A stretch of DNA of 64,000 nt. Source: Candidatus Heimdallarchaeota archaeon (lineage in GTDB: Archaea; Asgardarchaeota; Heimdallarchaeia; JABLTI01). The DNA lies in contig JAHLVW010000108.1 of NCBI GenBank assembly GCA_019058275.1, positions 1 through 64,000 of the forward strand, written 5' to 3'. Shown here piece by piece: positions 4,506 to 18,193 of the stretch. The notes below the pieces were generated by a model that made no database searches, was not told the DNA's origin, and worked only from the letters and a program-made list of their open reading frames with translations. The position numbers were made by a program, and so were the translations under genes. The first letter of the stretch is position 1; every line of letters starts with the position of its first letter.

Positions 4506-5144
4506 GTGAGATTTAGATTGTCTGGTGAAGAAGAACGAATCAATCAAATGGTTGAAGATATTGTTGGTAATGCTAAAGTAGAGGCTGATAAAGTACTTGG
4601 TGAATCAAAAAAGCAGACAATGGAAATACTTCAACGTGGAAAAGATGCTGCAGAAAAAGAAAAGATAATGATTGTTGAAAATGAATCAAAAATAATCCTT
4701 GAATTAGAAAAACAGCAAATTGCATCCATTAATCTACAAACCAGAAGAGAAATCTTACAGAAGAAAGAAGAAGAAATCAAAAAGATTTTTGATTTAGCTG
4801 AAGTTGAATTGAAAAACTTTACAAAGAAAGCTGGTTACTCTAAGGTTCTCGAAAGATTAATTATCGAAGCAGGTGCAGCTCTTGACGGTGGCAATTTAGT
4901 AATTAAAATTCGCAAAGAGGATAAGACTAAAATCAAAGATTTAACGACTATCTCAAAAAGCATCACTAAAGTTTGTGGAAATAAATGTTGTTTGAAAATT
5001 TCCAAAGAAATCATTAATACTATTGGTGGAATTGTTCTCCAAACTGAGGATGAATCAATAAGAATTGATAATACTTTTGAAGCTCGATTAGAACAAAAAT
5101 ATCGTTCAATTCGTTCAGAAGTTGCTAAGAAATTATTTGCTTAA
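4506..5144 (+). CDS. atpE: A/V-type ATP synthase subunit E
   Basis: N-terminal coiled coil and C-terminal IGGIVL...IRIDNTFEARL signature. Confidence 0.88.
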   Translation: MRFRLSGEEERINQMVEDIVGNAKVEADKVLGESKKQTMEILQRGKDAAEKEKIMIVENESKIILELEKQQIASINLQTRREILQKKEEEIKKIFDLAEVELKNFTKKAGYSKVLERLIIEAGAALDGGNLVIKIRKEDKTKIKDLTTISKSITKVCGNKCCLKISKEIINTIGGIVLQTEDESIRIDNTFEARLEQKYRSIRSEVAKKLFA

Positions 5145-5267
5145 ATAGATTTCCATGAGTGATTTATTCAATTTCATCTAAAAGAAATGTTTTAAAAACA
5201 ACCTACTATTAACAAAAAGTAGTTCCTCAAATGAAATGACTTATTTGATAACTCGGAGAGTAATGTA

Positions 5268-5870
5268 ATGAATAAGAAAGTTATCCGATTAACAATCATC
5301 TTAACAAGTTTACTTGTTGTAATGTTCATAGTCCAACCAAAGTTAGCAGAAGTTACCGCTGATGATAGATTACTTTTAGCTTTTGATCAACTATCACCAT
5401 CAGGTAATGTTTATCAAGGTGATACAGTTATTTTTGGAGGAACCGTCTTTAATAACCAGACAAGAGATTTACGTTTAATTGAACTTTCAGCAGATGTTTA
5501 TGTGCCAGATAATTTAAGCCTGCCATTCCATTATTACACTCACTCACTTAGAGAGCAAATTACTCGAAATATTCTTGAACCTAATGAGGCAAGAACTCTC
5601 TCCTTTGAAGTAACTATTGGTGATGAATTACCAAAAGCTGAAAATTATACAGTAATCCTAAGTTTGCAATTCATGCAAGCAGATCAAAGCGAAGATGATA
5701 TTACGCCCTATACTTATCAAATCGGAACAAATGCTACTATACACATATTAATTCCAAGAGATGATGCTCCTAAGTACATTTACGCTGTATTTGTATTACT
5801 CCTTTTGGGAATCATCGCATTCATTGTTCTTGGTATAGTCGGCTGGGTTCGGGAAAGAAGAAGTAGTTAA
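5268..5870 (+). CDS. Type I membrane protein, TRAP-alpha (SSR1)-like
   Basis: Signal peptide, beta-sandwich ectodomain (FNNQTRDL...ILEPNEARTLSF...VILSLQF...NATIHI), one C-terminal TM helix and basic tail. Motif order matches TRAP-alpha as remembered. Confidence 0.6.
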   Translation: MNKKVIRLTIILTSLLVVMFIVQPKLAEVTADDRLLLAFDQLSPSGNVYQGDTVIFGGTVFNNQTRDLRLIELSADVYVPDNLSLPFHYYTHSLREQITRNILEPNEARTLSFEVTIGDELPKAENYTVILSLQFMQADQSEDDITPYTYQIGTNATIHILIPRDDAPKYIYAVFVLLLLGIIAFIVLGIVGWVRERRSS

Positions 5871-5894
5871 GTGAATTTTTTTTCTTTTCACTTT

Positions 5895-6899
5895 TTATTT
5901 TACAACTTTTACTGTTTTACCTTGTACATGAACTTGGTATTTGCTCTGATCAATAGTTCTGTAGTAAATCGATAAGCTCGGTAGAAATATTTCCCCTTCT
6001 TTTGTAGGTTTAATTTTGAAAGTTTCAATTACTGTTGATTCATAGTTTAGTTGATCTATGATTCTTCTCGGATACATTGAAATTAGTTTATAATCATAAG
6101 TTGGTGGTAAAGCTACATCCACTACAAAAGCAATTCCTTCCCCAGAATTCGATATTTTAATTTGGATATAACCTTCCTTTTTGCGTTGTAATGGTTGTAA
6201 AATAACATATTCAGCTTTAAGGTTTGGTAAGGCATTTTTCTCAGACGCTAATAGCTCGCCTATTTTTGTCATAGCAAGATGAGGTGGACTAATTCCCTCT
6301 AAAGCATACAATTCAGCTAAATCTTCATAAGCTATGACATCGGAATAGGATGTTAAAATTCCTACTTCAGCTAATAATCCACTAAGCTTCTCTGGGTATA
6401 ACTCTTTCATATCAACACTGATATCGAGCTCTCTATATTCACGACCTCGAATATGCTCCATGTAAACTTGATACCCATGAATACCAAGTTCTATGGTGCT
6501 GATTTTTGTTGGATCACATACTAATGCAATAGCATCATCAAACAAACTTTGCTGATATCGTTGTGTTCTGATATCAACGCTTGATAAGAAGAAACCAAAA
6601 GAAGGATGACTATGAAACCAACCAACAATAACGGTATTTAATTTTTCAGCTTCTTCAGCAATTTTAGGAATAATTGTATAATCAGATATTTCTACAAAAA
6701 TTGAGCTCCCGCTTGTCATAGGAATTGCTTTTATAACTGTAATTGTTTCCTCATCAACAGTTCCTACCAACCAACCAATCACTTCCCTCCAAAACCTATA
6801 TGGTCTATTTGGATTAGCAAACTCTATGACATATCGAAACATGCCATTATAGGCTTCTTGAGTGATAATGACTGATTGTATCATATCTTTCAACTTCAT
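5895..6899 (-). CDS. MPN+/JAMM metalloprotease with C-terminal Ig-like beta-sandwich
   Basis: EVIGWL and VGWFHSHPSFGFFLSSVD give a complete JAMM motif. C-terminal IKISNSG...F.IKPTKEG beta-rich domain. Confidence 0.88.
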   Translation of the reverse strand: MKLKDMIQSVIITQEAYNGMFRYVIEFANPNRPYRFWREVIGWLVGTVDEETITVIKAIPMTSGSSIFVEISDYTIIPKIAEEAEKLNTVIVGWFHSHPSFGFFLSSVDIRTQRYQQSLFDDAIALVCDPTKISTIELGIHGYQVYMEHIRGREYRELDISVDMKELYPEKLSGLLAEVGILTSYSDVIAYEDLAELYALEGISPPHLAMTKIGELLASEKNALPNLKAEYVILQPLQRKKEGYIQIKISNSGEGIAFVVDVALPPTYDYKLISMYPRRIIDQLNYESTVIETFKIKPTKEGEIFLPSLSIYYRTIDQSKYQVHVQGKTVKVVK

Positions 6900-6997
6900 G
6901 AATCCAATTAAACTAAAGGATTTTTTGTTCGAGAGTTCTATTAAGGTTCTGGGATTTATCTCTTTTTAATAATTTCAAATAACCAGTTTACAAATGG

Positions 6998-7645
6998 CTA
7001 TCGGAAGGCATCTATTGTGGGATAAATATCTTCTGTTTTATTTAAAACACTCATATCTGAAGAATGTGCTACTATCCGTTTAAGTGCAGATATCTCGAGA
7101 TAAGGGATTTTCGTTTTTTGGTTCATTGCTATTTCTTTAGCAAGTTTTTCTGCGTCCTCAATTGTTATATGATCCTCTTTGTCTGCTCTTAAGTCTGATT
7201 TATTTCCACAAATAAGTATGGGAATATTTCCTGTATGTCCCCAAATTATGTTGCGCCATTTTGTCATTGAATCAAATGAGAATTTATTTGTGATATCAAA
7301 AACAATTATTGCCCCCTTAGCTCCATTATAAAATTGCGAATGAAGATATGGAAAGTATCTTTGTGATCTCAGATCATATATCTTACCTACTATCTTTGAT
7401 TGAGGGGTTTTCTTGCTTCTTATTAGTGAAATCTCTAGGGATGCAGAGTACCCCCTCTCAGCTATACCGGTTCTTGTTAATGCATGCAATAATGTTGTTT
7501 TTCCGACTTTTGTATTTCCAACTAGAACTACCTTCAAAATATCAGTTGTTGTTTTTTGTGGGATAAATTTTGTTTGAACTTCTGGTTCCATTCTAGTTAG
7601 TCTCCATTTAGGTAAGAGATAGTTTGTCTTTATTATTGATTGCAA
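6998..7645 (-). CDS. Rab/Ras-like small GTPase, degenerate; likely truncated by a premature TAG (frame continues to 6956)
   Basis: GNTKVGKT P-loop, DLRSQ (altered G3), NKSD, EISA. After the TAG at 6998-7000 the frame reads PFVNWLFEIIKKR-stop. Confidence 0.8.
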   Translation of the reverse strand: MQSIIKTNYLLPKWRLTRMEPEVQTKFIPQKTTTDILKVVLVGNTKVGKTTLLHALTRTGIAERGYSASLEISLIRSKKTPQSKIVGKIYDLRSQRYFPYLHSQFYNGAKGAIIVFDITNKFSFDSMTKWRNIIWGHTGNIPILICGNKSDLRADKEDHITIEDAEKLAKEIAMNQKTKIPYLEISALKRIVAHSSDMSVLNKTEDIYPTIDAFR

Positions 7646-7904
7646 ACACTACATTCTTTCTTGTATTTTTAATAATAATTGGTAGTAACAACTAATGTAA
7701 TTACAAGAGGTTTATTGTACTCATAATTTTAAAATTTAATTCAAATTTAATTGTCAACTACATATTTATTATAAGAATATCTTGCTTTCTGAAGTAATAC
7801 CTAGTTCTAAGTTTAACATTTTAGTAAGTAGATTATTTAGTAAGAATAGGAAAATAAAAGATGTCTAATAACAATTTGATGAAATAGAAGTGTGAAAATC
7901 TATT

Positions 7905-8573
7905 ATGAACAAAACAAAAGAAATTACTGTCTTGGAACGTGTTTCTAAGAAAAACGAGGAAATTGTGAAGGAAATTAGAACGATTTTTGGAGAGAATAGT
8001 ATTATTTGTTTTAATATTATGGGGTCACCAGGTAGTGGAAAGACTACTCTTATTGAAAAAACAATTGAAAAGCTCAAAGACAAGAAAACAATTGCTGTTA
8101 TTGAAGGTGATTTAGCAACTACAATTGATGCTGAAAGAATTCGTGAGTATGGTGTTGATGTATTGCAGATTAATACCGGAGGTATGTGCCATCTTGATGC
8201 TCAATTAATAAGAAATGCATTAAGCAAAATGGATCTCTCAGCAATTGATATTCTATTCATTGAAAATGTTGGTAATCTTGTTTGTCCTTCATCACATGAT
8301 TTGGGAGAAGATTATCGAGTAATTTTAGCTAGTGTGCCAGAAGGACCTCATAAACCAAAAAAATACCCAGTAATTTACAAAGAGGCTGATGTTGTAGTAA
8401 TAACAAAAGCTGATATATTAGAGCACTTTCCTGATTTCAGTATTGAGGTATTATTTGGTCATGCAATAGAAATCAAGCCTGATATCAAAACAATAAAGGT
8501 AGCTTTGAAGGGTGAGGATATCCAGATAGATGATTGGGTATATTGGCTGGAGAATGTAGAGCCAAAGAAATAA
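7905..8573 (+). CDS. hypB: Hydrogenase nickel-incorporation GTPase HypB
   Basis: GSPGSGKT, IEGD, INTGGMCHLDA, IENVGNLVCP, KYP and TKAD motifs. Confidence 0.95.
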   Translation: MNKTKEITVLERVSKKNEEIVKEIRTIFGENSIICFNIMGSPGSGKTTLIEKTIEKLKDKKTIAVIEGDLATTIDAERIREYGVDVLQINTGGMCHLDAQLIRNALSKMDLSAIDILFIENVGNLVCPSSHDLGEDYRVILASVPEGPHKPKKYPVIYKEADVVVITKADILEHFPDFSIEVLFGHAIEIKPDIKTIKVALKGEDIQIDDWVYWLENVEPKK

Positions 8574-8618
8574 TTTTTTTCATTCTTGATTTTTCTTGAT
8601 TCTAAATTTCACATATGA

Positions 8619-8927
8619 TTAGTCATCAAATAACATACCTTTGATTAAGTCCTCTCTAAGTTCATCTTTTATCATATTGATAATGCGATCGATTGATTCA
8701 TCTATTACATCCTCTTCAATTTTAGCTATAAATTCTGTGCTTGAGAGTGTTTTGTATAGCTTTTCCATTGCTTTATCAATTGCAGGAATAACTGCTTCAG
8801 CAAACGCAGACAAAAATAAGTTTGTTAAGGCATTTTTGTTAATCCATGGTCGATCAGCATAAATATCTTTCAATTCTTTAGCAGATAGTTGTTTAAACAT
8901 CTTTTTGCTCTCCTTTTTTAGGGTCAA
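8619..8927 (-). CDS. Hypothetical small alpha-helical protein
   Basis: Fills the gap between hypB and the actin-like operon; no recognisable motif. Confidence 0.55.
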   Translation of the reverse strand: MTLKKESKKMFKQLSAKELKDIYADRPWINKNALTNLFLSAFAEAVIPAIDKAMEKLYKTLSSTEFIAKIEEDVIDESIDRIINMIKDELREDLIKGMLFDD

Positions 8928-9019
8928 TTGTACATTTCGAGTTTTGTTTAGGACAATTTGTTATTGGTAACTATAATATGATTAATTTGAAATTCTAATA
9001 ATATAAATTGTTTGAAGGA

Positions 9020-9063
9020 AAAAGCTTTTACTAAAAAGTGTTAAGATGGCAATTCTTTTTAGT
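9020..9063. promoter_or_regulatory. Palindrome AAAAGCTTTT plus 9-bp inverted repeat ACTAAAAAG-N16-CTTTTTAGT upstream of the actin-like operon
   Basis: Seen at 9020-9029 and 9030-9038/9055-9063. Function is inferred only. Confidence 0.3.
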
Positions 9064-9158
9064 CAAGAGCAAGTTTTAATTCATAAAGATTTTATAAGGA
9101 TGACATTGTTTAATTATTAACTGTAAGAAATTTACCCTTTGGGAGATTTGATGAAGAA

Positions 9159-10232
9159 ATGTCTTTACGTCCAACATATAGAGCTATTGGAATTGACCTA
9201 GGTACTTCTACCATTAAGCTCTCCTGTGCTGATCATTTAAAGAAAATACCTTCTATAGTTGGCACCCCACTTGAGGGATGGAAAGGATTCAGTGGTGATT
9301 CGTCGCTTGAAATGAATTTGGTAATAAATGATGGCAATAGAACTTTATACGTTGGAGAGCTTGCTAGACTTCAAAGTGAAATAAAAAGGGAAATTGCTAG
9401 TGAAGGGAAAGTAAAAAGTATAGAAGATGCCGTTTTAGCTATTAAAGCGAGTTTAGCACTTATTTCTGACAAAGATTATGATCAAATAGTTATGGCCACT
9501 GGTGTTCCTGTAGCTTCATCAAAGAAAGAAATGGTCAAACTCGCCAAAGGTTTGAAAGGGAATATGGAAATTAATGTTGAAAATGAAGCTACAGGAGAAA
9601 AAATTAATCGTAAGCTTACAATTAAGCATTGCATAGTTATGCCTGAACCCTTTGGAACGTATTATTATACCTTGAAAACTGAAGGGGAATCAAGAGCTGT
9701 TGATGCTATTGTTATTGATGTAGGTCATGGCTCAACTGATATTTTGACATTATATGAAGGAAGATTAATGCGACAAGCTTCTGGAAGCTTAGAAGAGGCT
9801 ACCGATACATTAACACGTAGGATTGCTCAAGAATTGCAAAATCAAACAGGGAAGATTCTAAGACCCTTTGATCTCATGACATCACTTTCTCAAGGAAAGG
9901 ATGTTTTGACGATTGGAGGTGAACGTTGGGATATACTAGGAATGAAAGAGTATCACATTGAGAATATTGCAGACGTTATTTTAGATGAAGTTAATAGACT
10001 AATAGGAACCTTGCCACCAGATGCAATAATTGAAAAAGTAATTTTGTGTGGTGGAGGAATTCACCTCTTTGGTGATAGATTAAGACAAGGTTTTGAATAC
10101 GCAGGATTATCCGAACACCCAGAGATGTTGATAATGCCTGAAAATCCAGTAATGTCCAATGCCATGGGCTTTGAACTATTTGCTAGAAAATTCATCACAG
10201 ACTTAGGAGATAATGGGCAAAATGAGTTCTAA
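9159..10232 (+). CDS. ParM/StbA-family actin-like ATPase
   Basis: Phosphate-1 IGIDLGTS, YVGELA, connect-1 MPEP, phosphate-2 VIDVGHGSTD, adenosine LCGGG, connect-2 NPVMSNAMGF. Confidence 0.9.
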   Translation: MSLRPTYRAIGIDLGTSTIKLSCADHLKKIPSIVGTPLEGWKGFSGDSSLEMNLVINDGNRTLYVGELARLQSEIKREIASEGKVKSIEDAVLAIKASLALISDKDYDQIVMATGVPVASSKKEMVKLAKGLKGNMEINVENEATGEKINRKLTIKHCIVMPEPFGTYYYTLKTEGESRAVDAIVIDVGHGSTDILTLYEGRLMRQASGSLEEATDTLTRRIAQELQNQTGKILRPFDLMTSLSQGKDVLTIGGERWDILGMKEYHIENIADVILDEVNRLIGTLPPDAIIEKVILCGGGIHLFGDRLRQGFEYAGLSEHPEMLIMPENPVMSNAMGFELFARKFITDLGDNGQNEF

Positions 10233-10878
10233 AAAACCAGCAACTGACAAAACAAAGAAGAGTACATCTAAGTCTAGTACTAAGAAAGATACACAAAAGA
10301 CTAAGAAAACTAAGACTAGCAAGGAAAAAACAAAAGAAGAAGAAACTGAAGAAGAGAAAGGAAAAAGAAGAAGTCTCATTTCAGCTTTAAAGAGAAGTAT
10401 TTCAGTAAAAGGTGGAACACCTATGGGAGCTATCAAAGATCCTATGAATATTGTCATTACTTTAAGTCCTGCAAAACATGTTGATATCATAGAATACATT
10501 GAAGGAAATGTTCCTGCAGGTGGAAGGGCTGAATGGGTTCGTGATTCTATCAGATTGAAAATGCGTATCGAAAAAGGTGTTTATGGATTAAGCACTACTG
10601 GACAAGATATTACACAAAAAGATTCTGAGGAAGCACTTCAAAGTGTATTTGGTCAATTTGCTGAAGTTATGACGAGAGTAATGTCTGATCTCAAAACAAG
10701 CCAACCTGCTCCCAGACAAGTTGAAGCTTCACCAAGACCAGCTCCAAGGGAAAGACCAGTGCGTGGTGGACCACCTCAATTAAGGAAATTAGAGATTGAT
10801 GAGAGTGCTATAGAAGAAGCAAAACCAGATAGACCTTCATTAGACGATGCTATAGGAGCAATTGTTGTCGTGGAATAG
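10213..10878 (+). CDS. ParR-like ribbon-helix-helix protein with Lys-rich N-terminus and disordered C-terminus
   Basis: Overlaps the ParM-like gene. Core IVITLS-KHVDIIEYIEGNVPAGGRAEWVRDSIR has RHH layout and resembles plasmid ParR as remembered. Confidence 0.6.
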   Translation: MGKMSSKKPATDKTKKSTSKSSTKKDTQKTKKTKTSKEKTKEEETEEEKGKRRSLISALKRSISVKGGTPMGAIKDPMNIVITLSPAKHVDIIEYIEGNVPAGGRAEWVRDSIRLKMRIEKGVYGLSTTGQDITQKDSEEALQSVFGQFAEVMTRVMSDLKTSQPAPRQVEASPRPAPRERPVRGGPPQLRKLEIDESAIEEAKPDRPSLDDAIGAIVVVE

Positions 10879-10909
10879 GCTGTGAAAAATAAATAATGAG
10901 TGGAAGAAA

Positions 10910-12025
10910 ATGAAGATTCTATACAAAATTCCTCTAGATACTAAAGATCTATCAAATTTTCTTGAAGATGAAAAGAATTTTCTCATTGGTTTTTTGGGTA
11001 AATTAGAAGAAGTAAATGCAAAACCATTGGCTAAGAAATCAGCTGATTTACTAACAAAATTGAAAGAGGAACTACCTTCTGAAATTGAAATGATATTTCC
11101 ATTAAAAAATCCAAAAAATCAAATTCAGTCACTCCTTTCTATTGCCCAATCTTTTACGACAACATTCAAGAAGGCAAAACTCAAAGATTTTGGTATCAGC
11201 AGCAAGTGGGTTTTATTATCAAATGGATACCTAGGTAGTTTTGTTGAAGAGGATTATGAAATTGCTATATTACTTTATCTTATTGCTGCAATTTATCAAT
11301 CTCGAGCTTTAGCAAATGTTCAAACCAGCCCACAATATCGTTATTATTATATTTCTGCGCTTTCAGCACTATTGGGAGCAATTGAGTTCATGGATAGACT
11401 AACTCCAGATTCTGAACACTATGCTTATGCGTTTTATCAAATGCTGTTGATGCGAAAGCTTGATCTAGAAGCTGAAATAACAAAATCTGAAGCATTTAAT
11501 GCTAGAAAAAAGGGTGATTTTGATCGAGCAGCAAAGCTATTTGCAGGTGCAGCTTCATATCGATTTTCAATGATGAGTTATGAGCTTCCACCGGATTCAG
11601 ATAATAAAGTCAAAATTTACGCTTCAACTGAGCTTGGTATGGCTTGTTTCTACATAGCAGTAGGGTTAACCAATGTAAATGACTCCGAGAAAGCCTATTC
11701 CTATTTGCTTAAAGCAAGAAGCTACTTTGAAAATGCTGCAAAGCTCTCCGAAGATAACACAGATCTCTTAGAATCTGCTAATAAGAGGTTAGAATTAGTT
11801 AATCCATATATTGATCGAATTAAAGATACAATTGAACAAAGTGATATAAAAATTGAGGACATATCTGATCCACAACCACTTATGGTTCACCCAGAACCAA
11901 AACCAATTCTTTCACCCAATGACACAACTCAAGAACAAACTCTAATTTGCTCTAATTGTATCAAAAAAATACCATGGACCGATGTTTGTCCTGAATGTAA
12001 AGAAATCATAATTCCAATTGAATAA
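10910..12025 (+). CDS. Alpha-helical/TPR-like repeat protein with C-terminal Zn ribbon
   Basis: Ala/Tyr-rich helical repeats; C-terminal CSNC...CPEC. Confidence 0.65.
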   Translation: MKILYKIPLDTKDLSNFLEDEKNFLIGFLGKLEEVNAKPLAKKSADLLTKLKEELPSEIEMIFPLKNPKNQIQSLLSIAQSFTTTFKKAKLKDFGISSKWVLLSNGYLGSFVEEDYEIAILLYLIAAIYQSRALANVQTSPQYRYYYISALSALLGAIEFMDRLTPDSEHYAYAFYQMLLMRKLDLEAEITKSEAFNARKKGDFDRAAKLFAGAASYRFSMMSYELPPDSDNKVKIYASTELGMACFYIAVGLTNVNDSEKAYSYLLKARSYFENAAKLSEDNTDLLESANKRLELVNPYIDRIKDTIEQSDIKIEDISDPQPLMVHPEPKPILSPNDTTQEQTLICSNCIKKIPWTDVCPECKEIIIPIE

Positions 12026-12051
12026 AAGTCAAAATACTAAGAGGTCTTGCA

Positions 12052-12783
12052 TTGCTTATACACAAGTATCGAACTATTAGGTCCTTAAAGATCTGTTATT
12101 GGGGACCCAGCATGTCAGGAAAAACCTTTACTGTAACAGCAATTAAAGTCATGAAATCTTTAGAGAATCCTAAAAGTGTTTTCGATTTTGTAACAGTAGC
12201 AGATCAAGAAACAGGTCGAACTGTTTTCTTTGACCAAGCAGTTTTTGGGTTTGGTAATAAACCAGAAACTAATGAATTCTTGTTTAAAATCCATGTTTTT
12301 ACAACTGCAGGACAAAAAAGACTCAAAGAAACACGTAAAGTTGTGTTACAGGGAATTCGTGGTCTAGTTCTTGTAGTTGATGCTGATTTAGATAATTGGG
12401 AACAGAATATTTGGTCATTACGAGAATTAAAGGAACTAAAAGGAAACGATATTAAAGAACAGAAAATTCCCTGTACTGTTTTTGTAAATAAACAAGATCT
12501 TCCTTGGGGAAGGAAAATTTCTCACAGACATGTTGAGCAGCTTTTTAAAGCAGCGGAAGTATCGGATCTCTTTCCTGAGCTTAAGGGGTGTGTCTTTGGT
12601 GGCTCTTGTCAGCAAGCAAGAGATGACTTGGAACATCTCCTAAGAACTACTCCGAGAGATCTAATCCTTAACTCAAAAGGACAATTAAAACGGGAATTTC
12701 GACCAAAATCATTCAATCCGCTTATAAAATCACTTGAGAATATTGTAAAGCAGGTAATTAAGAAACAATTATTAGAAAAGTAG
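12052..12783 (+). CDS. MglA-family small GTPase
   Basis: KICYWGPSMSGKT, GRTVFFD, TTAGQ, RKVVLQG, NKQD match the MglA-type pattern. Confidence 0.85.
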   Translation: MLIHKYRTIRSLKICYWGPSMSGKTFTVTAIKVMKSLENPKSVFDFVTVADQETGRTVFFDQAVFGFGNKPETNEFLFKIHVFTTAGQKRLKETRKVVLQGIRGLVLVVDADLDNWEQNIWSLRELKELKGNDIKEQKIPCTVFVNKQDLPWGRKISHRHVEQLFKAAEVSDLFPELKGCVFGGSCQQARDDLEHLLRTTPRDLILNSKGQLKREFRPKSFNPLIKSLENIVKQVIKKQLLEK

Positions 12784-12975
12784 CATTTTTATCTAAAAAC
12801 ATAAGAATTAGCTCAAAGTATGCAACAATCGGTAATTATTAGTATTTGTTATGAAAAATCTGTTAAAGTATACTATATTTATATTTGAATTGCTAAGAAG
12901 TATATACAAGTGAAAAAATTCGACAAAAAGCAGGCTCTCACATAAATAGACCATTTGTAAAGGGATTGTGTAACT

Positions 12976-15900
12976 ATGTTTAAGAAATTCTTCTCTTGGT
13001 TGAAGAGACTCTTCAAAAGAAAGGAAAAAGAAGAAGTAATAGTAGAAACTCTCGAGATTACTGAAGTACTAGAAGAAGAGGAAATTGCAATTGAAGAATA
13101 TAGTCCAGATATTTTTCAAGTTGGAGAAGATGAAAGACAGCTTTTTGAAGAAGAAATGGAGCTTGAACAACAAGTTAGAGAGCTAAAAAGGGATAAAGAA
13201 ACCATTCAAAACATAGAACAATTACTTGATCAAATTACATCTGAAAAAGATATTTTTAAGATATTAGGAGCAGATGATTTTTGGAATGCAACAGCATACT
13301 GCACTACTGTTCGAGAGAAATTTGCTAAAGCTAAAGAAGATAAGGATGAAGAGCAACAACTCAAGCACTTTTGGCGTACAAACAAAATGTATATGCGTTC
13401 TCTGGAAGCTTATCGAGATGCAATAGCTAAAAGTGATATGCTAAGAGCTCGAGTAATGCTTCTAAATATTCGAATGCTCTATGATGTATTAATAGGAATG
13501 CATAAATTGAGTCAAAAGGTTATACCCAAACCACAAACTTTGGATATAGAAATGCGTAAAGAATATGTGAAAGATGTTCTTGTCGAAATCTTGGAAAAGA
13601 GTACTTTCCCTTTAAGCATTAAAGAAATCATTGATGAGGTAAGAAAAAGCGAATTAAAATCGGTTTTAGAGCTCTTCACTGAAGAATCCACTCAATTCTA
13701 TTTAGAATCACTTGTTGAGGATGAATTCATCAAGCAAATTAAAAGGTATATTGAGATTGCACCACCACCATTACCAAATATAACTCCAGAAATGAGTGAG
13801 TTAATACCAGAAGCAATCTTTGAGTATACCTACGCTCCTGATGTTAAAATGTATCGCAGAGAGGACATTGGCAGAGAAGAGCTGTCTGCTCTCTTTCCAC
13901 CTGAAATTTACAAAGGATTGCAAGAAAGAGGTTTTTATCGTATTGGAGATGTTCAGGGTCGTTTGGATGAACTTCAAAAGGTCTTACTTGAGGAATTAGA
14001 ATTTGAGCCGGATATGACTACTATTTCGATTGGTATATTAAGTGAACGCTTAGGACGTCTTGATTCAATACAACAAACACAATTAACTCAGAGATCACTA
14101 ATTGAAAAACGAAGGCTAACTCAAGCGAAGGTTGAAGAAGTCGGTAATATAGAAAGTGAAACACAAGAAGCAGAAATTCAGTCTGTGAAAGCTGAAAGAA
14201 AAGAGATCATCATGAACATAATAAATCAAGATATAATTAATTCACCAATACCTCGTCCTTATCAGCTAGAAGCATACTATATGTTCAAGGGTGATAATTA
14301 TAATGCAAGTATTATTGATTCTCCAACAGGTTCTGGTAAAACATTAATGGGAATGATGTGTATCCAGGACTGGTTAAGAACATTAAGAAAAGATGAATCA
14401 ATTTTAGTTCTTGTACCTACACTAAACTATCAATCACAGTGGGTTGATTCCATTTGCTTCAATGAGATTGGTTTGCAAATTTCTTCAAACTTTGTTTTCT
14501 CTGGAACAATTACCCAACTTGAGAATTTCATATCGAAAACACGTGAGATCCCACCAATTATTATTCTTACTTATACCTCACTTGCTCAAGTTCTCGGAGC
14601 TAAAACTAAAAAGGAACGAGAGCTTAAACAATTGATAAATTGGTTAGGTATTCGTAATGTTCTCTTTGACGAAGCTCATAAAATAGTTGAACAAGAAGCA
14701 AGTGCTACTTATCAAGTAGCTAAAAGACTTGTTAAACTATATAAGGGTGCACATATTGAGAATTTTATTGGTTTCTCCGGAACTGCTAAAGCTTATGAGA
14801 AAGATTTCAAACGTTTAGGATTAAAACTAATTTATATTGTTCCTGAGAAAGAACTTGTTTTACACGGATTTGTTGCTCCTATTGCTGAATTAGGTGTAAC
14901 CTTTGCTTACTCCGGTAGAGAGAAAGCTATTCGAGAGATTCACAATGAAATTAAGGTAAATATGAAACAGCTTTGGAGTTATTTCGGTTACAATAACATG
15001 CGACGCCAATTTCAAAAGATATCAATGAATGAACGTCTATTTATTTGTAAAGAACTTCTAGGAATGTATCAAAGTTACAGAAGTGATATCGTTACTGAGA
15101 AACTAAAACTAAAATTTGCAGAATGGGCACCAAGTAGAGAGAAAGGTCCACTAACATTAAATGATGTGAATCTAGTTCAAGCAGTTCAGATTTATAATGG
15201 ATGGTCTGATATTTCGTTAGCTTATAATTCAAATCACACTAATTCGGCTCGTGAAATAGTTGAAGAAACAGATGAGCTCATTATGCGTTTAGAACAACTA
15301 ATTCGAATACCTAGTTTGCAAAAAATGATAACAAGTGAGAAATATGGAAAAAGAATGCTTAAATGTAACACTCTTTACAATATTAGAAAGGAGAGTAAGA
15401 ATCGAAGAGAAGCGATCAAGAAAGTAAGAGATATTATGTGTTCTACAATGGTTGGAATCTACAGAGCACTCGACGTATGGGCTAGAACCAAAATTGGTGA
15501 AGGAAGAGTAGGAACGCTACAATCAATAATTAATGCAGAAGAAGAAATTAGAGATGTTAAGGGGGTAGTAATATTTGATAGAGGACGAACAATAAAAACT
15601 GAAAGTGAAACTGATATTGGATCTCCTGGTTTTTCTGGTGTAGGTGGAAGCTTTGCACAAAGCTTAGGAACTAATATTATCAAATACAATCCTATTGCTG
15701 TTCAATCCTCTGAAATGTATATTAGCTCTAATCCGAATTTGGAAAAGCCATTACAAGTTATGATGGCTGACTTTATTCGTAATGAAGTAATTGTGGATAA
15801 ACTAACTGAAAGGATTTTCATGGAAATTATTTATGAATTGCCTTTCCAAGATCAGCTTAGCAATTTCATTTATTTGACATTCAAAGAATTAATGGTAAGT

Positions 15901-17166
15901 TATGCTTCAACTTTGAAGAAAGTTTTTCGAGCTAGATATGGGGAATTTTCCAAGAAGGTTTTCCAACCATTAAGTGAATTCATAAATGAGATGGTAATTC
16001 TTGATGCAAATATAGCACTAGCAGTTAACTTGCTAAAAGATCGTATAGATAATCCATCGATAAGGATTAATAACATAGTGCTAATGCTTTTTGACTATGC
16101 AATTATCGCTCGTAAAATAGAATTTGCTAAGAAGAAAACATTACAGACAGCTTCAGGTGAATTACAAGATTATTATTCACTAAATATGCCTTCTGGTAGA
16201 CAGAAACAATTAATCTATGATCTTGTTTCTGACTTTCTTGATTCAGAAGAGCTACCTATTCAATTGGTTTTTGTTTCTTCCTGGGCAAGAACTGGATGGG
16301 ATGTTAGGACGCCTGACATTTTAATAGATGCAACAGCAACCCGAGATGTAACTGCTTGGCAGCAATTACGTGGAAGAGCTATGCGAGCTCTAGAAAGTTG
16401 GACTATTGAATGTTATAGTACAATTGCAATTCTTTTGGGTAAAAGTGGTAGTGCGAATAAGGTAATCCAAAGATTACCAATAGAGATGCAAAAAAATTTC
16501 AGGAAGATTAGAGAGGAATTTGCTCCAAAGGAAGAATTGAATGAAGAAATGATTGAACTTCTACATAATTCTATAGATGAAGCAAAAATTACTTCGGAAG
16601 ATAAAGTTGCATTAAAAATCAAAGTGAATTCTGGGAAGGTAAATAAATTATCAACAACAGAGAGAATGAAATTAATCATTTATCTTATGCTTGCTAAGAA
16701 TAAAGTTGCTCATATTTTTGAGATGGTTAAAGCGTCAGGTTCAACCAGACAAGTAGAATTAGACAAAGGAACCGGAACTTGGAGAAGGAAAGCTTCAATC
16801 GCTAAAAAACATAGAGATGAACCACTCTTACCAGTTCCAGGATCTGAAAGAAGAAGAGGTAAATATATTGCACCTTTAATCTATGCAAAAGATCCAACTG
16901 CAGATACCCCTTTAGAAGTACGTTCTACACTTAAGAATCTCTTACATAATCTAGATGAAGATTTATTGGATAATTGGGTTCTTTCACTGATTGAGGAAGG
17001 AGATACGCAACAACGTTTAACGGTGGATTCTGAAACTGAACGTGAGCGTGAAGATCTAGAAGCACTTGCTCGAGATGAAAAGATAACAGCACGACTAGAA
17101 ATAGATGGTGTAACAGAAGATTTATTGAAAGATTTCTTAAGTAAAATAGACTCTGTTGAGTTTTAG
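12976..17166 (+). CDS. Large superfamily 2 (DEAH) helicase-like protein
   Basis: PRPYQ, SPTGSGKT, LVPT, FDEAH, SGT, ARTGWD and QLRGRAMR motifs; long N-terminal region and large inserts. Confidence 0.85.
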   Translation: MFKKFFSWLKRLFKRKEKEEVIVETLEITEVLEEEEIAIEEYSPDIFQVGEDERQLFEEEMELEQQVRELKRDKETIQNIEQLLDQITSEKDIFKILGADDFWNATAYCTTVREKFAKAKEDKDEEQQLKHFWRTNKMYMRSLEAYRDAIAKSDMLRARVMLLNIRMLYDVLIGMHKLSQKVIPKPQTLDIEMRKEYVKDVLVEILEKSTFPLSIKEIIDEVRKSELKSVLELFTEESTQFYLESLVEDEFIKQIKRYIEIAPPPLPNITPEMSELIPEAIFEYTYAPDVKMYRREDIGREELSALFPPEIYKGLQERGFYRIGDVQGRLDELQKVLLEELEFEPDMTTISIGILSERLGRLDSIQQTQLTQRSLIEKRRLTQAKVEEVGNIESETQEAEIQSVKAERKEIIMNIINQDIINSPIPRPYQLEAYYMFKGDNYNASIIDSPTGSGKTLMGMMCIQDWLRTLRKDESILVLVPTLNYQSQWVDSICFNEIGLQISSNFVFSGTITQLENFISKTREIPPIIILTYTSLAQVLGAKTKKERELKQLINWLGIRNVLFDEAHKIVEQEASATYQVAKRLVKLYKGAHIENFIGFSGTAKAYEKDFKRLGLKLIYIVPEKELVLHGFVAPIAELGVTFAYSGREKAIREIHNEIKVNMKQLWSYFGYNNMRRQFQKISMNERLFICKELLGMYQSYRSDIVTEKLKLKFAEWAPSREKGPLTLNDVNLVQAVQIYNGWSDISLAYNSNHTNSAREIVEETDELIMRLEQLIRIPSLQKMITSEKYGKRMLKCNTLYNIRKESKNRREAIKKVRDIMCSTMVGIYRALDVWARTKIGEGRVGTLQSIINAEEEIRDVKGVVIFDRGRTIKTESETDIGSPGFSGVGGSFAQSLGTNIIKYNPIAVQSSEMYISSNPNLEKPLQVMMADFIRNEVIVDKLTERIFMEIIYELPFQDQLSNFIYLTFKELMVSYASTLKKVFRARYGEFSKKVFQPLSEFINEMVILDANIALAVNLLKDRIDNPSIRINNIVLMLFDYAIIARKIEFAKKKTLQTASGELQDYYSLNMPSGRQKQLIYDLVSDFLDSEELPIQLVFVSSWARTGWDVRTPDILIDATATRDVTAWQQLRGRAMRALESWTIECYSTIAILLGKSGSANKVIQRLPIEMQKNFRKIREEFAPKEELNEEMIELLHNSIDEAKITSEDKVALKIKVNSGKVNKLSTTERMKLIIYLMLAKNKVAHIFEMVKASGSTRQVELDKGTGTWRRKASIAKKHRDEPLLPVPGSERRRGKYIAPLIYAKDPTADTPLEVRSTLKNLLHNLDEDLLDNWVLSLIEEGDTQQRLTVDSETEREREDLEALARDEKITARLEIDGVTEDLLKDFLSKIDSVEF

Positions 17167-17190
17167 TATTTCCTCAACAGATTAACATTT

Positions 17191-17574
17191 TTAACTTGAA
17201 TTCTTTGCAAAGAAAAGAATCTTAGGTCTTCCTCGTTTATTAGTACGAACAGGCTTTTTCTCTACTTGCCCTTTCATGATTAGTTTAGCTAAGATATCGT
17301 ATAAAGTAGTTCTTGGCATATTAGTTAAAGATGCTAACGTATTCCTTGTAATAGGTCCTTTTTCTAACAAGATTTTAACTAAGAACTCCTCTATAGGTAC
17401 CTGTTTCATATCAAGCTTTTCTTCACCATATACGAAGGCTGTTCTTTGACTATAAACGATTTGATTATTCGAGACTTCCGTCTCTTCTAATTGCTTTCGG
17501 ATTAGTTTACTTATTTCCTCATTAATACTATATTCCTCGTTCACAATACATTCCCTCTCATATTGTTTATCCAT
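17191..17574 (-). CDS. Winged-helix (TrmB-like) DNA-binding protein
   Basis: GPITRNTLASLTNMPRTTLYDILAKL..KG.V...RGRP. Confidence 0.8.
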   Translation of the reverse strand: MDKQYERECIVNEEYSINEEISKLIRKQLEETEVSNNQIVYSQRTAFVYGEEKLDMKQVPIEEFLVKILLEKGPITRNTLASLTNMPRTTLYDILAKLIMKGQVEKKPVRTNKRGRPKILFFAKNSS

Positions 17575-17740
17575 CTTACTACATTTTAGTGAATAATAAA
17601 CCTTATGCGATATATCGATAATATAAATTTTTTTGGTATATTATACATTTAATATATTACTTCATCTGTTTTATTAATATAATGCATTTCAAAACTCTTT
17701 TAATCCTTTTTGAATAAAGAGACTTAAGGTAAATTAGAGT

Positions 17741-18154
17741 GTGACAAATCTGAAAGGGCAGAATATCGATTTCTCTACTAGAATTATTAATCCTAAAAAG
17801 AGAAATTCTTCATCTGGCAATAAAAAAGATTATAAGAATATCTCAGGTGATTTTGTAGAATTCAAAGCTAGTGTAATAAAAAAAGATAAGCTTGATAAAA
17901 TATCACAACTTCAAGGAACAAATGTTATTTTCAGTATTGCTAAAATTTCCAAATGGTCTTGGGAAGAAAAGAAACCTGCTGTCTGCATGATTTGTAAGTT
18001 AGCATTAAAATCTGGGCAAAATGTTGCCCGTTGCCCAATGTGTCATTCACTCTTTCATAACGAACATGTTTTCGAGTGGTTAAAAATAAAAGGGAAATGT
18101 CCTGTTTGTTTGCAAAGTTTACACCCTGGAGGAACAGAGGAAGTTAAACTTTAA
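17741..18154 (+). CDS. RING-finger protein (putative E3 ubiquitin ligase)
   Basis: CMIC...CPMCHSLFHNEHVFEWL...KCPVC. Confidence 0.85.
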   Translation: MTNLKGQNIDFSTRIINPKKRNSSSGNKKDYKNISGDFVEFKASVIKKDKLDKISQLQGTNVIFSIAKISKWSWEEKKPAVCMICKLALKSGQNVARCPMCHSLFHNEHVFEWLKIKGKCPVCLQSLHPGGTEEVKL

Positions 18155-18193
18155 TAGTTGTTTTAGAAAGATAAAGAAAAGAGCTGTTAGATT

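What the first reader, a model, noticed from the sequence alone, without database searches (positions are those of the whole stretch)
9159..10878. Chromosomal ParM-ParR-like pair in an Asgard-type genome
Seen: an actin-fold ATPase with all five motifs in ParM/StbA style overlaps a gene whose core (IIEYIEGNVPAGGRAEWVRDSIR) has ribbon-helix-helix layout, flanked by a Lys-rich N-tail and ending in a short amphipathic acidic segment (SLDDAIGAIVVVE). Known: type II partition systems use ParM plus an RHH ParR whose C-terminal helix binds the filament, and are mostly plasmid-borne. Inference: a domesticated ParMR module, since both genes are intact and have no mobile-element neighbours, acting in DNA segregation or positioning. 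It would be distinct from Lokiactin.
Basis: partly seen in the sequence, partly recalled or inferred. Interest (0 to 1): 0.75.

Follow-up and report, generated by a model that had tools for sequence, protein, structure and literature searches.

The report
Heimdall archaeal ParM–ParR-like filament operon
One family of Heimdall-group Asgard archaea keeps on its chromosome a plasmid-partition-style actin-like filament gene, overlapped by a ParR-like adaptor gene and followed by an MglA-type switch GTPase; this would be a second, non-Lokiactin filament system in close relatives of eukaryotes, and its cargo (DNA or membrane) is not known.

Summary
ORF 9159-10232 is an intact ParM/Ta0583-type actin-fold ATPase. 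ORF 10213-10878 overlaps it and has the described Lys-rich tail, core and invariant C-terminal peptide.

The ParR-like reading is supported. The core folds (AF2, pLDDT 84-95) as strand-helix-helix. Its two best structural matches among 48,161 PDB chains are the ParR proteins of pSK41 and pB171, and most other matches are RHH proteins.

- **Conservation:** the pair occurs in 12/12 genomes of one Heimdall family and in none of 388 other Asgard genomes searched. It has no mobile-element neighbours and is under purifying selection.
- **Operon:** it is the head of a four-gene operon. The other two genes encode a helical/Zn-ribbon protein and an MglA-type GTPase.
- **Origin:** the ATPase arose by duplication within an Asgard-specific ALP clade, not by recent plasmid capture.
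- **Tail motif:** a similar C-terminal tail sits on an unrelated protein beside the ALP of a second family.
- **Function:** DNA segregation is not shown, and no parC-like repeats were found. A CorMR-like repurposed cytoskeleton remains a live rival.

The scan found this module before on sister genomes. I classify it as a new variant of a known kind.

The parts
9037..9099 (+). Two conserved upstream blocks (9037-9062 and 9076-9099, the second with a TATA-like TTTTATAA at 9090-9097). They are a candidate promoter/operator. There is no iteron array.
   Evidence: The alignment of upstream regions from 8 genomes shows these blocks, plus a GGGAG Shine-Dalgarno site at 9141-9145. No repeated k-mers or tandem repeats were found.
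9159..10232 (+). Actin-like ATPase (ALP) of ParM/StbA/Ta0583 type, 357 aa, paralogue 'A' of three in this genome.
   Evidence: Pfam ALP_N 5.5e-15 and MreB-like_C 4.9e-14. Best PDB sequence hits are Ta0583 (2e-7), Dh-cParM1 (2e-6) and CorM (7.5e-5). All five motifs are present. Orthologues are 76-98% identical. dN/dS is about 0.05.
10213..10878 (+). ParR-like adaptor, 221 aa (likely true start 10222). It has a Lys-rich tail, a basic helix, an RHH-like core, a long helix, a Pro/Arg linker and an invariant C-terminal tail.
   Evidence: No Pfam or NCBIfam match. 79 homologues, all from Heimdall/Asgard MAGs. Alignment A1. Present in 12/12 genomes of family f1 and in no other of 400 Asgard genomes. 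dN/dS is about 0.21.
10213..10410 (+). Lys/Ser/Thr-rich disordered N-tail (aa 1-45, net +10) and conserved basic helix KRRSLISALKRSIS (aa 46-66).
   Evidence: Composition and charge. AF2 helix 46-63. R52, L55, I56, R61 and I63 are invariant within the family. This region is absent from the distant relatives P0201/P0203/P0204.
10441..10575 (+). Ribbon-helix-helix-type core (aa 77-121: strand MNIVITLS, helix VDIIEYIEGN, helix AGGRAEWVRDSIRLKMRIEK).
   Evidence: AF2 model of aa 74-167 with pLDDT 84-95 over this part. VIA-align rank 1 is 2q2k_B (pSK41 ParR): Z 5.3, rmsd 1.4 A, 44/44 residues. Rank 2 is 2jd3_B (pB171 ParR): Z 4.6, 29% identity. Most other matches are RHH proteins. The Foldseek top hit is 2jd3_A. 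A gapless profile match to 8 RHH_1 domains of the same genome lands in register, z = 4.0, 0/2000 shuffles.
10708..10821 (+). Pro/Arg-rich flexible linker (aa 166-203) holding the conserved GGPPQL[KR]K motif (aa 185-192).
   Evidence: pLDDT is below 60. It has 7 Pro and 7 K/R. G185, P188 and K192 are invariant even in the distant relatives.
10822..10875 (+). Invariant C-terminal tail KPDRPSLDDAIGAIVVVE (aa 204-221). It is the inferred docking peptide for the ALP filament.
   Evidence: P205, R207, P208, L210, D211 and D212 are invariant across all relatives, including those at 25-31% identity. The motif LD[DN][AV][IM] in the last 16 aa occurs in only 2 of 7,502 ORFs of this genome. It recurs at the C-terminus of an unrelated 190-aa protein beside the ALP of family f2.
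10910..12025 (+). 371-aa helical-repeat protein with a C-terminal CxxC...CxxC zinc ribbon. It is the third gene of the operon.
   Evidence: 31-nt spacer with no terminator. Weak DUF2225 and TPR_2 matches in 8/8 orthologues. CSNC at 347 and CPEC at 360. Specific to family f1. dN/dS is about 0.11.
12052..12783 (+). MglA-type small GTPase, 243 aa, with a C-terminal extension. It is the fourth gene of the operon.
   Evidence: Best PDB hits are MglA of M. xanthus (3e-15) and T. thermophilus (6e-14), far ahead of Arf-like proteins (1.6e-6). G1 is GPSMSGKT, G3 is TTAGQ (Thr in place of Asp, the MglA hallmark, PMC3000849) and G4 is NKQD. A full-length homologue lies beside the ALP of family f2 (28% identity, E 1e-31).
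12976..17166 (+). 1,396-aa SF2 helicase (DEAD/ResIII/SNF2-like). It is a family-specific neighbour that probably has its own promoter. Its membership in the module is uncertain.
   Evidence: Pfam DEAD 9.5e-14 and ResIII 3.4e-12. The upstream spacer is 192 nt. It is found downstream in all f1 genomes, and otherwise in only one genome of the class, on a 3.8-kb contig.

Best explanation
This is a chromosomally fixed ParMR-type filament-plus-adaptor module. It heads a four-gene operon in one family of Heimdall-group Asgard archaea.

Shown here:
- Gene 1 is an intact ParM/Ta0583-type actin-fold ATPase.
- Gene 2 overlaps it, so the two are probably translationally coupled. It encodes a protein whose core is predicted to fold as a ribbon-helix-helix, most like the ParR centromere-binding proteins.
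- The adaptor ends, after a flexible Pro/Arg linker, in an invariant 18-residue tail.
- The pair always occurs with a helical/Zn-ribbon protein and an MglA-type GTPase.
- All four genes are under purifying selection.

Inferred:
- The ATPase polymerises with ATP.
- The adaptor dimerises through the RHH and docks its C-terminal tail on the filament, as ParR does on ParM.
- The RHH, together with the Lys-rich tail and basic helix, holds the cargo. The cargo is most likely DNA or chromatin, so that filament growth positions or separates it.
- The MglA-type GTPase and the helical/Zn-ribbon protein decide where and when this happens.

Sub-confidences: filament-plus-ParR-like-adaptor identity about 0.8; tail docks on the ALP about 0.65; cargo is DNA about 0.4; the GTPase regulates the filament about 0.4. 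The overall figure given is for the statement as a whole, with DNA as the most likely but unproven cargo.
For: ATPase family:
- Pfam ALP_N and MreB-like_C are above their cut-offs.
- PDB hits are Ta0583, Dh-cParM1 and CorM.
- It is about 25% identical over more than 90% of its length to more than 1,100 plasmid ParM/StbA genes.
- All five motifs are present.

Adaptor fold:
- The AF2 core has pLDDT 84-95.
- The top two of 48,161 PDB chains are ParR of pSK41 (Z 5.3, rmsd 1.4 A over 44/44 residues; identity of 2Q2K checked in PMC3074162) and ParR of pB171 (Z 4.6). RHH proteins fill most of the remaining list.
- The Foldseek top hit is also pB171 ParR.
- The profile match to genuine RHH_1 domains is in register (z = 4.0).

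Pairing:
- The genes overlap, and the gene order is identical in 12/12 family genomes.
- The adaptor is found only where clade-A ALP is found.
- A second, distant adaptor relative (GF308_06805) lies two genes from a different ALP paralogue (GF308_06815) on one contig.

Tail:
- It is invariant across relatives at 25-31% identity and near-unique in the genome.
- It recurs on a non-homologous protein beside the f2 ALP.

GTPase link:
- Homologous MglA-type GTPases sit beside ALPs of two different clades, in different gene orders.
- Precedents are MglA-MreB (PMC4508894) and MglA-TPR protein (PMC3983030).

Selection: dN/dS is 0.05-0.21 for the four genes.
Against: - No parC-like repeat array lies upstream, inside or downstream of the operon.
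- The adaptor matches no ParR or RHH sequence family. hhalign gives only 12% probability.
- The fold-search Z-scores are low in absolute terms (5.3 and 4.6) because the domain is only 44 residues long, and the model is a monomer with an unpaired strand.
- The outward-facing strand residues (N79, V81, T83) are not basic.
- No multimer prediction could be run, so the tail-ALP contact is not shown.
- The chromosomal CorR also has an RHH yet does not bind DNA.
- The GTPase family is present in 81/83 genomes of the class, many of which lack the ALP, so it is not dedicated to the filament.
- All synteny inside family f1 could be phylogenetic inertia.
Confidence: 0.55

Rival explanations
1. CorMR-like repurposed cytoskeleton. 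The ParR-like adaptor no longer binds DNA. Instead it tethers the filaments to the membrane through its Lys-rich tail and basic helix, for cell shape, protrusions or polarity. The MglA-type GTPase sets the position.
For: - The chromosomal ParMR of Anabaena works this way: no parC, an RHH that fails to bind DNA, and a C-terminal peptide that binds CorM.
- No iterons were found here either.
- CorM is among the three PDB sequence hits of the ATPase.
- MglA systems act at membranes and poles (PMC4508894, PMC3983030).
- In family f2 the ALP lies next to phospholipid-synthesis genes.
Against: - The N-terminus (MSSKK plus a K/S/T-rich tail) has no hydrophobic face, and none of the top amphipathic windows lies in aa 1-66.
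- The distant relatives lack the basic N-terminal region but keep the RHH core. The conserved cargo-binding part is therefore the RHH itself.
- R105 at the start of helix 2, the usual phosphate-contact region of RHH proteins, is invariant.
Confidence: 0.22
2. The second gene is only an RHH transcriptional autoregulator of the operon. It is not a filament adaptor, and its conserved tail serves another partner, such as the Zn-ribbon protein or the GTPase.
For: - Many RHH proteins are small repressors.
- Two conserved blocks lie in the promoter region and could be an operator.
- No direct evidence exists for a tail-ALP contact.
Against: - A 100-residue extension ending in an invariant peptide on a flexible linker is the ParR/CorR layout, not that of a simple repressor.
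- The same tail motif sits on an unrelated protein next to an ALP in family f2. There the Zn-ribbon protein was not found with the window's protein as query at E 1e-5.
- A second adaptor relative again lies near an ALP.
Confidence: 0.1
3. A decaying relic of an integrated plasmid or virus partition cassette with no host function.
For: - The ALP paralogue, adaptor, Zn-ribbon protein and large helicase are all specific to one family.
- ParMR systems are typically plasmid-borne (PMC12270681).
Against: - All genes are intact in 12/12 genomes, with dN/dS of 0.05-0.21.
- No integrase, transposase or replication gene lies within about 10 kb.
- Base composition equals the surroundings.
- The ATPase nests inside an Asgard-specific clade, far from plasmid ParMs (stem 4.5 substitutions per site).
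- No relative was found on IMG/VR viral contigs or PLSDB plasmids.
Confidence: 0.03

Closest known systems
ParMRC type II plasmid partition systems (R1, pB171, pSK41)
   Same: - An actin-fold ATPase of the ParM/StbA/ALP superfamily, followed by an overlapping gene.
- That gene's product has an RHH core whose best structural matches are pSK41 and pB171 ParR.
- The adaptor ends in a conserved C-terminal peptide.
   Different: - The module is chromosomal and archaeal, and no parC iterons were found.
- The ATPase is only about 25% identical to plasmid ParMs and scores 64 bits against a 417-bit cut-off for the NCBIfam ParM equivalog.
- The RHH is preceded by a 75-residue Lys-rich tail plus a basic helix, rather than sitting at the N-terminus.
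- The adaptor has no sequence match to any ParR.
- The operon also encodes a helical/Zn-ribbon protein and an MglA-type GTPase.
CorMR of Anabaena (bioRxiv 10.1101/2025.06.27.661541) and bacterial chromosome-encoded cParMR cassettes (PMC12270681)
   Same: - A chromosomal, vertically inherited ParMR-like pair without parC.
- The adaptor has an RHH, a long helix, a disordered linker and a C-terminal filament-binding peptide.
- CorM and Dh-cParM1 are among the three PDB sequence hits of the ATPase.
   Different: - It has no N-terminal amphipathic membrane helix, but a Lys-rich tail instead.
- There is no MinC link; an MglA-type GTPase and a Zn-ribbon protein share the operon.
- The host is archaeal.
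- The function is untested.
Ta0583 of Thermoplasma acidophilum (archaeal ParM-like actin homologue, PDB 2fsj)
   Same: It is the best solved-structure sequence match (E 2e-7 over aa 10-339) and has the same Pfam MreB-like_C domain. It is also archaeal and chromosomal.
   Different: The identity is low. I know of no ParR-like partner for Ta0583 (from my own knowledge, not checked here). The Asgard ALPs form their own clade with up to four paralogues per genome.
MglA-MreB connection in Myxococcus xanthus (PMC4508894) and the MglA-TPR protein Bd2492 in Bdellovibrio (PMC3983030)
   Same: An MglA-family GTPase (TxxGQ G3 motif, best PDB hits MglA) is genetically linked to an actin-like filament protein and to a helical-repeat protein.
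   Different: - The actin here is ParM-type, not MreB.
- The linkage is by operon only.
- No MglB/Roadblock gene is in the operon.
- The GTPase has an extra C-terminal extension of about 60 residues.

Membership tests
ParM/StbA/ALP actin-like ATPases (Pfam ALP_N PF17989 + MreB-like_C PF21522) | Domain models scored above the curated cut-offs. | tested here: met
   ALP_N 56.3 bits (cut-off 26.3) and MreB-like_C 53.4 bits (cut-off 27.8).
ParM/StbA/ALP actin-like ATPases | Five actin-fold nucleotide-binding motifs intact. | tested here: met
   Phosphate 1, connect 1, phosphate 2, adenosine and connect 2 were all found. They are invariant in alignment A7.
ParM/StbA/ALP actin-like ATPases | Equivalog of plasmid segregation protein ParM (NCBIfam PRK13917). 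| tested here: not met
   64 bits against a cut-off of 417. A tree separates the Asgard ALPs from plasmid ParM/PRTRC-D by a stem of 4.5 substitutions per site.
ParM/StbA/ALP actin-like ATPases | Nucleotide-dependent polymerisation into filaments. | not testable with these tools
   Needs purified protein.
ParR (type II centromere-binding adaptor) | Ribbon-helix-helix DNA-binding fold. | tested here: met
   This rests on a predicted structure only. The core has pLDDT 84-95. The best matches are ParR of pSK41 (Z 5.3, rmsd 1.4 A, 44/44) and ParR of pB171 (Z 4.6), followed mostly by RHH proteins. The profile match to RHH_1 domains is in register, z = 4.0. The strand is unpaired because only a monomer could be modelled.
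ParR (type II centromere-binding adaptor) | Encoded directly downstream of, and co-expressed with, the filament ATPase. | tested here: met
   11-20 nt overlap in all 12 genomes.
ParR (type II centromere-binding adaptor) | C-terminal peptide that binds the filament. | tested here: inconclusive
   An invariant C-terminal tail on a flexible linker exists and recurs beside another ALP. Binding could not be modelled or assayed.
ParR (type II centromere-binding adaptor) | Cognate parC array of iterated repeats next to the operon. | tested here: not met
   No repeated k-mers, tandem repeats or conserved iterons were found in the upstream regions of 8 genomes or within 5000-19000 of the window. A site elsewhere in the genome is not excluded.
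ParR (type II centromere-binding adaptor) | Sequence membership in a described ParR/RHH family. | tested here: not met
   No Pfam, NCBIfam or PDB-sequence match, even at E = 10. No tblastn match in 72,556 plasmids.
CorMR (chromosomal ParMR repurposed as a membrane cytoskeleton) | N-terminal amphipathic membrane-binding helix on the adaptor. | tested here: not met
   The N-terminus is K/S/T-rich, and none of the eight most amphipathic 14-residue windows lies in aa 1-66. Electrostatic membrane binding by the Lys tail is not excluded.
CorMR (chromosomal ParMR repurposed as a membrane cytoskeleton) | Chromosomal, vertically inherited, no parC. | tested here: met
Lokiactin / crenactin / eukaryote-like actins | Pfam Actin (PF00022) above the cut-off over the whole fold. 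| tested here: not met
   26.1 bits against a cut-off of 27, covering only aa 169-230.
MglA family GTPase (fourth gene of the operon) | Thr in place of Asp in the G3 motif (TxxGQ), and closest similarity to MglA. | tested here: met
   TTAGQ at 84-88. MglA E-values of 3e-15 to 6e-14, against 1.6e-6 for the best Arf-like protein. The hallmark is taken from PMC3000849.
MglA family GTPase (fourth gene of the operon) | Cognate MglB/Roadblock GAP encoded alongside. | not tested
No such gene is in the operon.

The most novel reading that the evidence does not exclude
A Heimdall lineage uses an actin-like (ParM-type) filament to move or separate its chromosome or chromatin. A ParR-like RHH adaptor with a histone-tail-like Lys-rich arm couples the cargo to the filament, and an MglA-type GTPase switches it in space and time. 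This would be a filament-driven, GTPase-controlled DNA-segregation apparatus in close archaeal relatives of eukaryotes. The short C-terminal LDD[AV]I-type tail would be a portable docking peptide that different Asgard proteins use to engage ALP filaments.
Probability: 0.17. Interest if true: 0.88.

Novelty: new variant of a known kind. Interest (0 to 1): 0.6.

Why it matters
How Asgard archaea organise and segregate their contents is almost unknown. Work on their cytoskeleton has centred on Lokiactin and its eukaryote-like regulators. This locus shows that some Heimdall archaea also keep a second actin-like system of the bacterial-plasmid type, with up to three or four paralogues per genome.

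One paralogue has a dedicated ParR-like adaptor and shares an operon with an MglA-type switch GTPase. I found no paper describing an archaeal ParM-ParR pair or an Asgard ALP-MglA link.

The parts are small, soluble-looking and easy to express. Polymerisation, tail docking, and DNA versus membrane binding can all be tested directly. Together with CorMR, the locus adds an independent case of a partition machine fixed on a chromosome.

Tried and rejected
- **Sequence searches of the adaptor.** Pfam, NCBIfam and PDB sequences gave nothing real, even at E = 10. The single GST hit (E 0.19) is chance.
- **Fold search with the full-length adaptor model** (pLDDT 60). It gave only generic helical hairpins. 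Only the trimmed core gave RHH/ParR matches.
- **hhalign of the core against 8 own-genome RHH domains.** Probability 12%, and the alignment put helix 1 out of register. It was replaced by a gapless profile test. The first version of that script timed out.
- **Search for parC-like repeats.** None found.
- **Context of the distant adaptor relatives P0201/P0203/P0204.**
  - Both metagenome scans were empty.
  - Genome contigs and 400 Asgard genomes hold only the f1 orthologues.
  - The last homologue search found only P0204 itself.
  - The second ALP-adaptor pairing therefore rests on NCBI locus tags alone.
- **One 980-aa hit of the profile search** (P0205) is an SH3b-repeat amidase and was rejected as spurious.
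- **The second ORF in the genome with the tail motif** (C36:84381-84911) is a dCMP-deaminase-type enzyme 8 kb from ALP paralogue B. I judged it coincidence.
- **Paralogues B and C.** Neither has an adaptor-like neighbour.
- **Homology between the adaptor and the f2 190-aa protein** was rejected (hhalign probability 0.5%).
- **Bro1 (ALIX) fold of the third gene, reported by earlier notes.** No BRO1 or ALIX match appeared by sequence or profile.
- **Viral and plasmid origin.** No relatives were found.
Full report
**What is there**

The two ORFs are exactly as reported: 9159-10232 (+, 357 aa) and 10213-10878 (+, 221 aa). They overlap by 20 nt. Orthologues all begin with MSSKK, so the true start is probably the ATG at 10222, which gives an 11-nt overlap. 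An AGGAG site lies at 10204-10208. Base composition (33-35% G+C) is the same as the rest of the window.

**The ATPase**

- It matches Pfam ALP_N (5.5e-15, 56.3 bits, cut-off 26.3) and MreB-like_C (4.9e-14, 53.4 bits, cut-off 27.8).
- The Pfam Actin model matches only aa 169-230 and stays below its cut-off.
- NCBIfam ParM (PRK13917) scores 64 bits against a cut-off of 417. The protein is therefore a superfamily member, not a ParM equivalog.
- The only solved structures found by sequence are Ta0583 (2e-7), the chromosome-encoded Dh-cParM1 (2e-6) and CorM (7.5e-5).
- More than 1,100 plasmid ParM/StbA genes align at about 25% identity over more than 90% of the length.
- All five actin-fold motifs are intact.

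So does the statement that it is distinct from Lokiactin.

**The partner**

It has no Pfam, NCBIfam or PDB-sequence match, even at E = 10. It has 79 homologues, all from Heimdall/Asgard MAGs. The alignment shows a fixed architecture:

1. a variable Lys/Ser/Thr-rich tail (aa 1-45, net +10);
2. a conserved basic helix, KRRSLISALKRSIS;
3. a strand-helix-helix core, MNIVITLSPAKHVDIIEYIEGNVPAGGRAEWVRDSIRLKMRIEKG;
4. a long helix containing GQFAEVMT;
5. a Pro/Arg-rich linker with a conserved GGPPQL[KR]K motif;
6. the nearly invariant tail KPDRPSLDDAIGAIVVVE.

**Is the core a ribbon-helix-helix?**

The full-length AF2 model was poor (pLDDT 60), and its fold searches gave only generic hairpins. A model of aa 74-167 alone has pLDDT 84-95 over the first 50 residues. 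It shows an extended segment (MNIVITLS) followed by two helices, which is the shape of an RHH monomer before the strands pair in a dimer.

- Aligned against 48,161 representative PDB chains, the best match is 2q2k_B (Z 5.3, rmsd 1.4 A over 44 of 44 residues). PMC3074162 identifies 2Q2K as the pSK41 ParR-DNA complex.
- The second match is 2jd3_B, ParR of pB171 (Z 4.6, 56 residues, 29% identity).
- Most of the remaining list consists of RHH proteins: NikR, YiiF, TacA, CopA, CdbA, PutA, ParD, AmrZ, ORF56, RelB, omega and TraM.
- Foldseek, an independent method, also puts pB171 ParR first, though without significance (E 1.4).
- A gapless profile comparison with the eight genuine RHH_1 domains of this same genome scores best at exactly the in-register offset, with z = 4.0 and 0 of 2,000 column shuffles reaching it.

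The Z-scores are low in absolute terms, as they must be for a 44-residue domain. hhalign alone gave 12%. Even so, the agreement of these tests makes an RHH of ParR type the best reading.

**Conservation and distribution**

- The partner is found in 12 of 12 genomes of one (anonymised) family, f1, which spans two genera. It is found in none of the other 71 genomes of the class or the other 388 of the phylum.
- In every case the order is ALP, partner (overlapping), a 371-aa protein, then a 243-aa GTPase, with spacers of 18-90 nt. A 1,396-aa helicase follows after about 150-190 nt.
- No terminator-like site lies between the first four genes.
- dN/dS (NG86, with dS near saturation) is 0.05, 0.21, 0.11 and 0.08 for the four genes.
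- Within about 10 kb the neighbours are V-ATPase subunit E, an aminotransferase, a JAB protein, a Ras-family GTPase, HypB, TrmB/ArsR regulators, a RING protein and ribosomal protein L10e. There is no integrase or transposase.
- No relative of either protein was found on IMG/VR viral contigs. The partner has no match on PLSDB plasmids.

The locus is therefore chromosomal, stable and maintained by selection.

**Origin of the ATPase**

- This genome has three paralogues: ours, one on C36 at 58% identity and one on C107 at 51%. The other two have no partner-like neighbour.
- Across 301 Asgard genomes the family is patchy (54 genomes): three copies in f1, one in f2, and some in five other families.
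- In a tree, the Asgard ALPs are separated from plasmid ParM and PRTRC-D by a stem of 4.5 substitutions per site.
- Within the Asgard clade, ours (A) sits on a long stem of 0.76. It lies beside clades B and C, a Loki/Hel clade, an f2-type clade and a further long-stemmed clade D (quick search, SH-aLRT support only).
- The ATPase therefore arose by duplication inside an Asgard-specific family, not by recent capture of a plasmid system.

**A second pairing**

A profile search of 1.84 billion representatives found only three more distant relatives of the partner: P0201, P0203 and P0204, at 25-31% identity. They keep the RHH-like core, the GQF helix, the PxLKK motif and the KP[DE]RPxLDD tail, but lack the Lys-rich region.

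P0204 is GF308_06805. The clade-D ALP P0194 is GF308_06815, on the same 31.9-kb contig. The same MAG also holds the clade-A pair GF308_13885/13890. I could not fetch that contig, so this rests on locus tags. It suggests that ALP and adaptor duplicated together.

**The tail**

The motif LD[DN][AV][IM] within the last 16 residues occurs in only 2 of 7,502 ORFs (60 aa or longer) of this genome. One is the partner. The other is a deaminase-type enzyme, which I judged to be coincidence.

In family f2, 12 of 19 ALP loci encode, divergently beside the ALP, a 185-193-aa protein that ends in TPYELAKISLDNVIQF. This protein shows no detectable homology to the partner (hhalign 0.5%). A near-unique tail recurring at the extreme C-terminus of an unrelated ALP neighbour is the best indirect evidence that the tail is the filament-docking element.

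**The rest of the operon**

- **Fourth gene.** It is an MglA-family GTPase. Its best PDB hits are MglA of M. xanthus (3e-15) and T. thermophilus (6e-14), against 1.6e-6 for the best Arf-like protein. Its motifs are G1 GPSMSGKT, G3 TTAGQ (with the MglA-typical Thr, PMC3000849) and G4 NKQD.
- **GTPase-ALP linkage.** In f2 the single ALP lies next to, or one gene from, a full-length homologue of this GTPase (28% identity, E 1e-31), in a different gene order. The GTPase family is, however, present in 81 of 83 genomes of the class, with 2-3 paralogues each, including families without the ALP. The link is therefore suggestive, not exclusive. Known precedents are MglA binding MreB (PMC4508894) and MglA binding a TPR protein (PMC3983030).
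- **Third gene.** It is a helical protein with weak DUF2225 and TPR_2 matches in 8/8 orthologues and a C-terminal CxxC...CxxC ribbon. It is f1-specific. Earlier notes on sister genomes report a Bro1 (ALIX) fold for it. I found no sequence support and could not test the fold.
- **Helicase.** It is also f1-specific.

**What is not there**

No parC-like array was found. The 231-nt upstream region has no iterated repeats. Upstream regions of eight genomes share no k-mer present three or more times. Tandem Repeats Finder finds nothing relevant in 5000-19000. What is conserved upstream is two blocks (9037-9062 and 9076-9099, the second TATA-like) and a GGGAG site. These look like a promoter, perhaps with an operator.

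**Interpretation**

The module is of ParMR type: a filament ATPase plus an RHH adaptor with a C-terminal docking tail. I give this about 0.8.

Whether the cargo is DNA is open.

- For DNA: the RHH is the part conserved even in the distant relatives, R105 at the start of helix 2 is invariant, and f1 adds a strongly basic tail.
- Against DNA: no centromere repeats were found, the outward-facing strand residues are not basic, and there is the CorR precedent. CorR is a chromosomal ParR homologue with an RHH that does not bind DNA and instead tethers filaments to the membrane. Unlike CorR, this adaptor has no N-terminal amphipathic helix.

I put DNA or chromatin cargo at about 0.4, a membrane tether at about 0.2, and a mere autoregulator at about 0.1.

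**Novelty**

NCBI already names the ATPase 'ParM/StbA family protein', while the partner is 'hypothetical' everywhere. I found no paper on an archaeal ParM-ParR pair or an Asgard ALP-MglA link in the held library. The closest published systems are CorMR and the bacterial cParMR cassettes.

The same module has been noted and followed up by this scan on sister genomes. My reading agrees with those notes on the main points. It adds the ParR fold matches, the tail-rarity count, the selection figures and the ALP tree.

**Limits**

- No multimer prediction was possible.
- The ALP tree is a quick search with long branches.
- Synteny within one family is not independent evidence.
- The look-up of encoding contigs and the Atlas were closed.

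Noticed in passing
L072-L090 (family f2 ALP loci), e.g. L072:654-1226(-), L089:605-1168(-): A 185-193-aa protein without Pfam hits is encoded divergently beside the single ALP of family f2. It ends in an invariant TPYELAKISLDNVIQF, which echoes the adaptor's tail. An MglA-type GTPase lies on its other side, and CDP-alcohol phosphatidyltransferase and phosphatidylserine decarboxylase genes are convergent with the ALP.
   Followed up: partly
window 12976-17166: A 1,396-aa SF2 helicase (DEAD/ResIII, weak SNF2 and AAA_34 matches) with a long acidic coiled N-terminal region. It is specific to family f1 and always lies downstream of the operon. The only other copy in the class (80% identity) is on a 3.8-kb contig of an f4 genome, which looks like mis-binning.
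   Followed up: partly
window 8619-8927 (-): A small 102-aa gene with no family match lies divergent from the ALP. It is conserved at the same place in the sister genomes (MFKQLSAKELKEIYA...).
   Followed up: no
window 10279-10373: The DNA coding for the Lys/Glu-rich tail forms an imperfect 37-nt x 2 tandem repeat. The tail length varies widely among orthologues (195-287 aa proteins), as expected for a region that grows by slippage.
   Followed up: no
window 10765-10794 (aa 185-194 of the adaptor): A GGPPQL[KR]K[VLM]E motif is conserved even in the relatives at 25-31% identity. From memory it recalls the LKK[TV] stretch of WH2 actin-binding motifs, but here it precedes rather than follows the hydrophobic tail. 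This was not tested.
   Followed up: no
G183:C17:20619-22772 and G138:C128 (other Asgard families): Two ALP genes (50% and 36% identical to the window's) lie head to head about 120 nt apart in G183. A similar close pair lies on G138:C128. These may be a heteromeric or duplicated filament system.
   Followed up: no
G000:C107:17166-18545 (L003:36-1415): ALP paralogue C is preceded, 68 nt upstream on the same strand, by a 459-aa multi-pass membrane protein with a basic C-terminal tail and no Pfam match.
   Followed up: no
G000:C36:73605-74153 (-): Near ALP paralogue B lies an Arf-like protein (Pfam Arf 1.5e-7 over its C-terminal half only). Its N-terminus seems to lack a normal P-loop, and it ends in a Lys-rich tail. 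It may be a pseudo-GTPase.
   Followed up: no
window 5895-7645 and 17741-18154: A JAB/MPN protein with a weak TRAP-beta-like C-terminal part, a Ras-family GTPase (Pfam Ras 6.9e-26) and a RING-finger protein (zf-RING_2 2.7e-7) flank the operon. These are eukaryote-signature-type genes typical of Asgard genomes.
   Followed up: no
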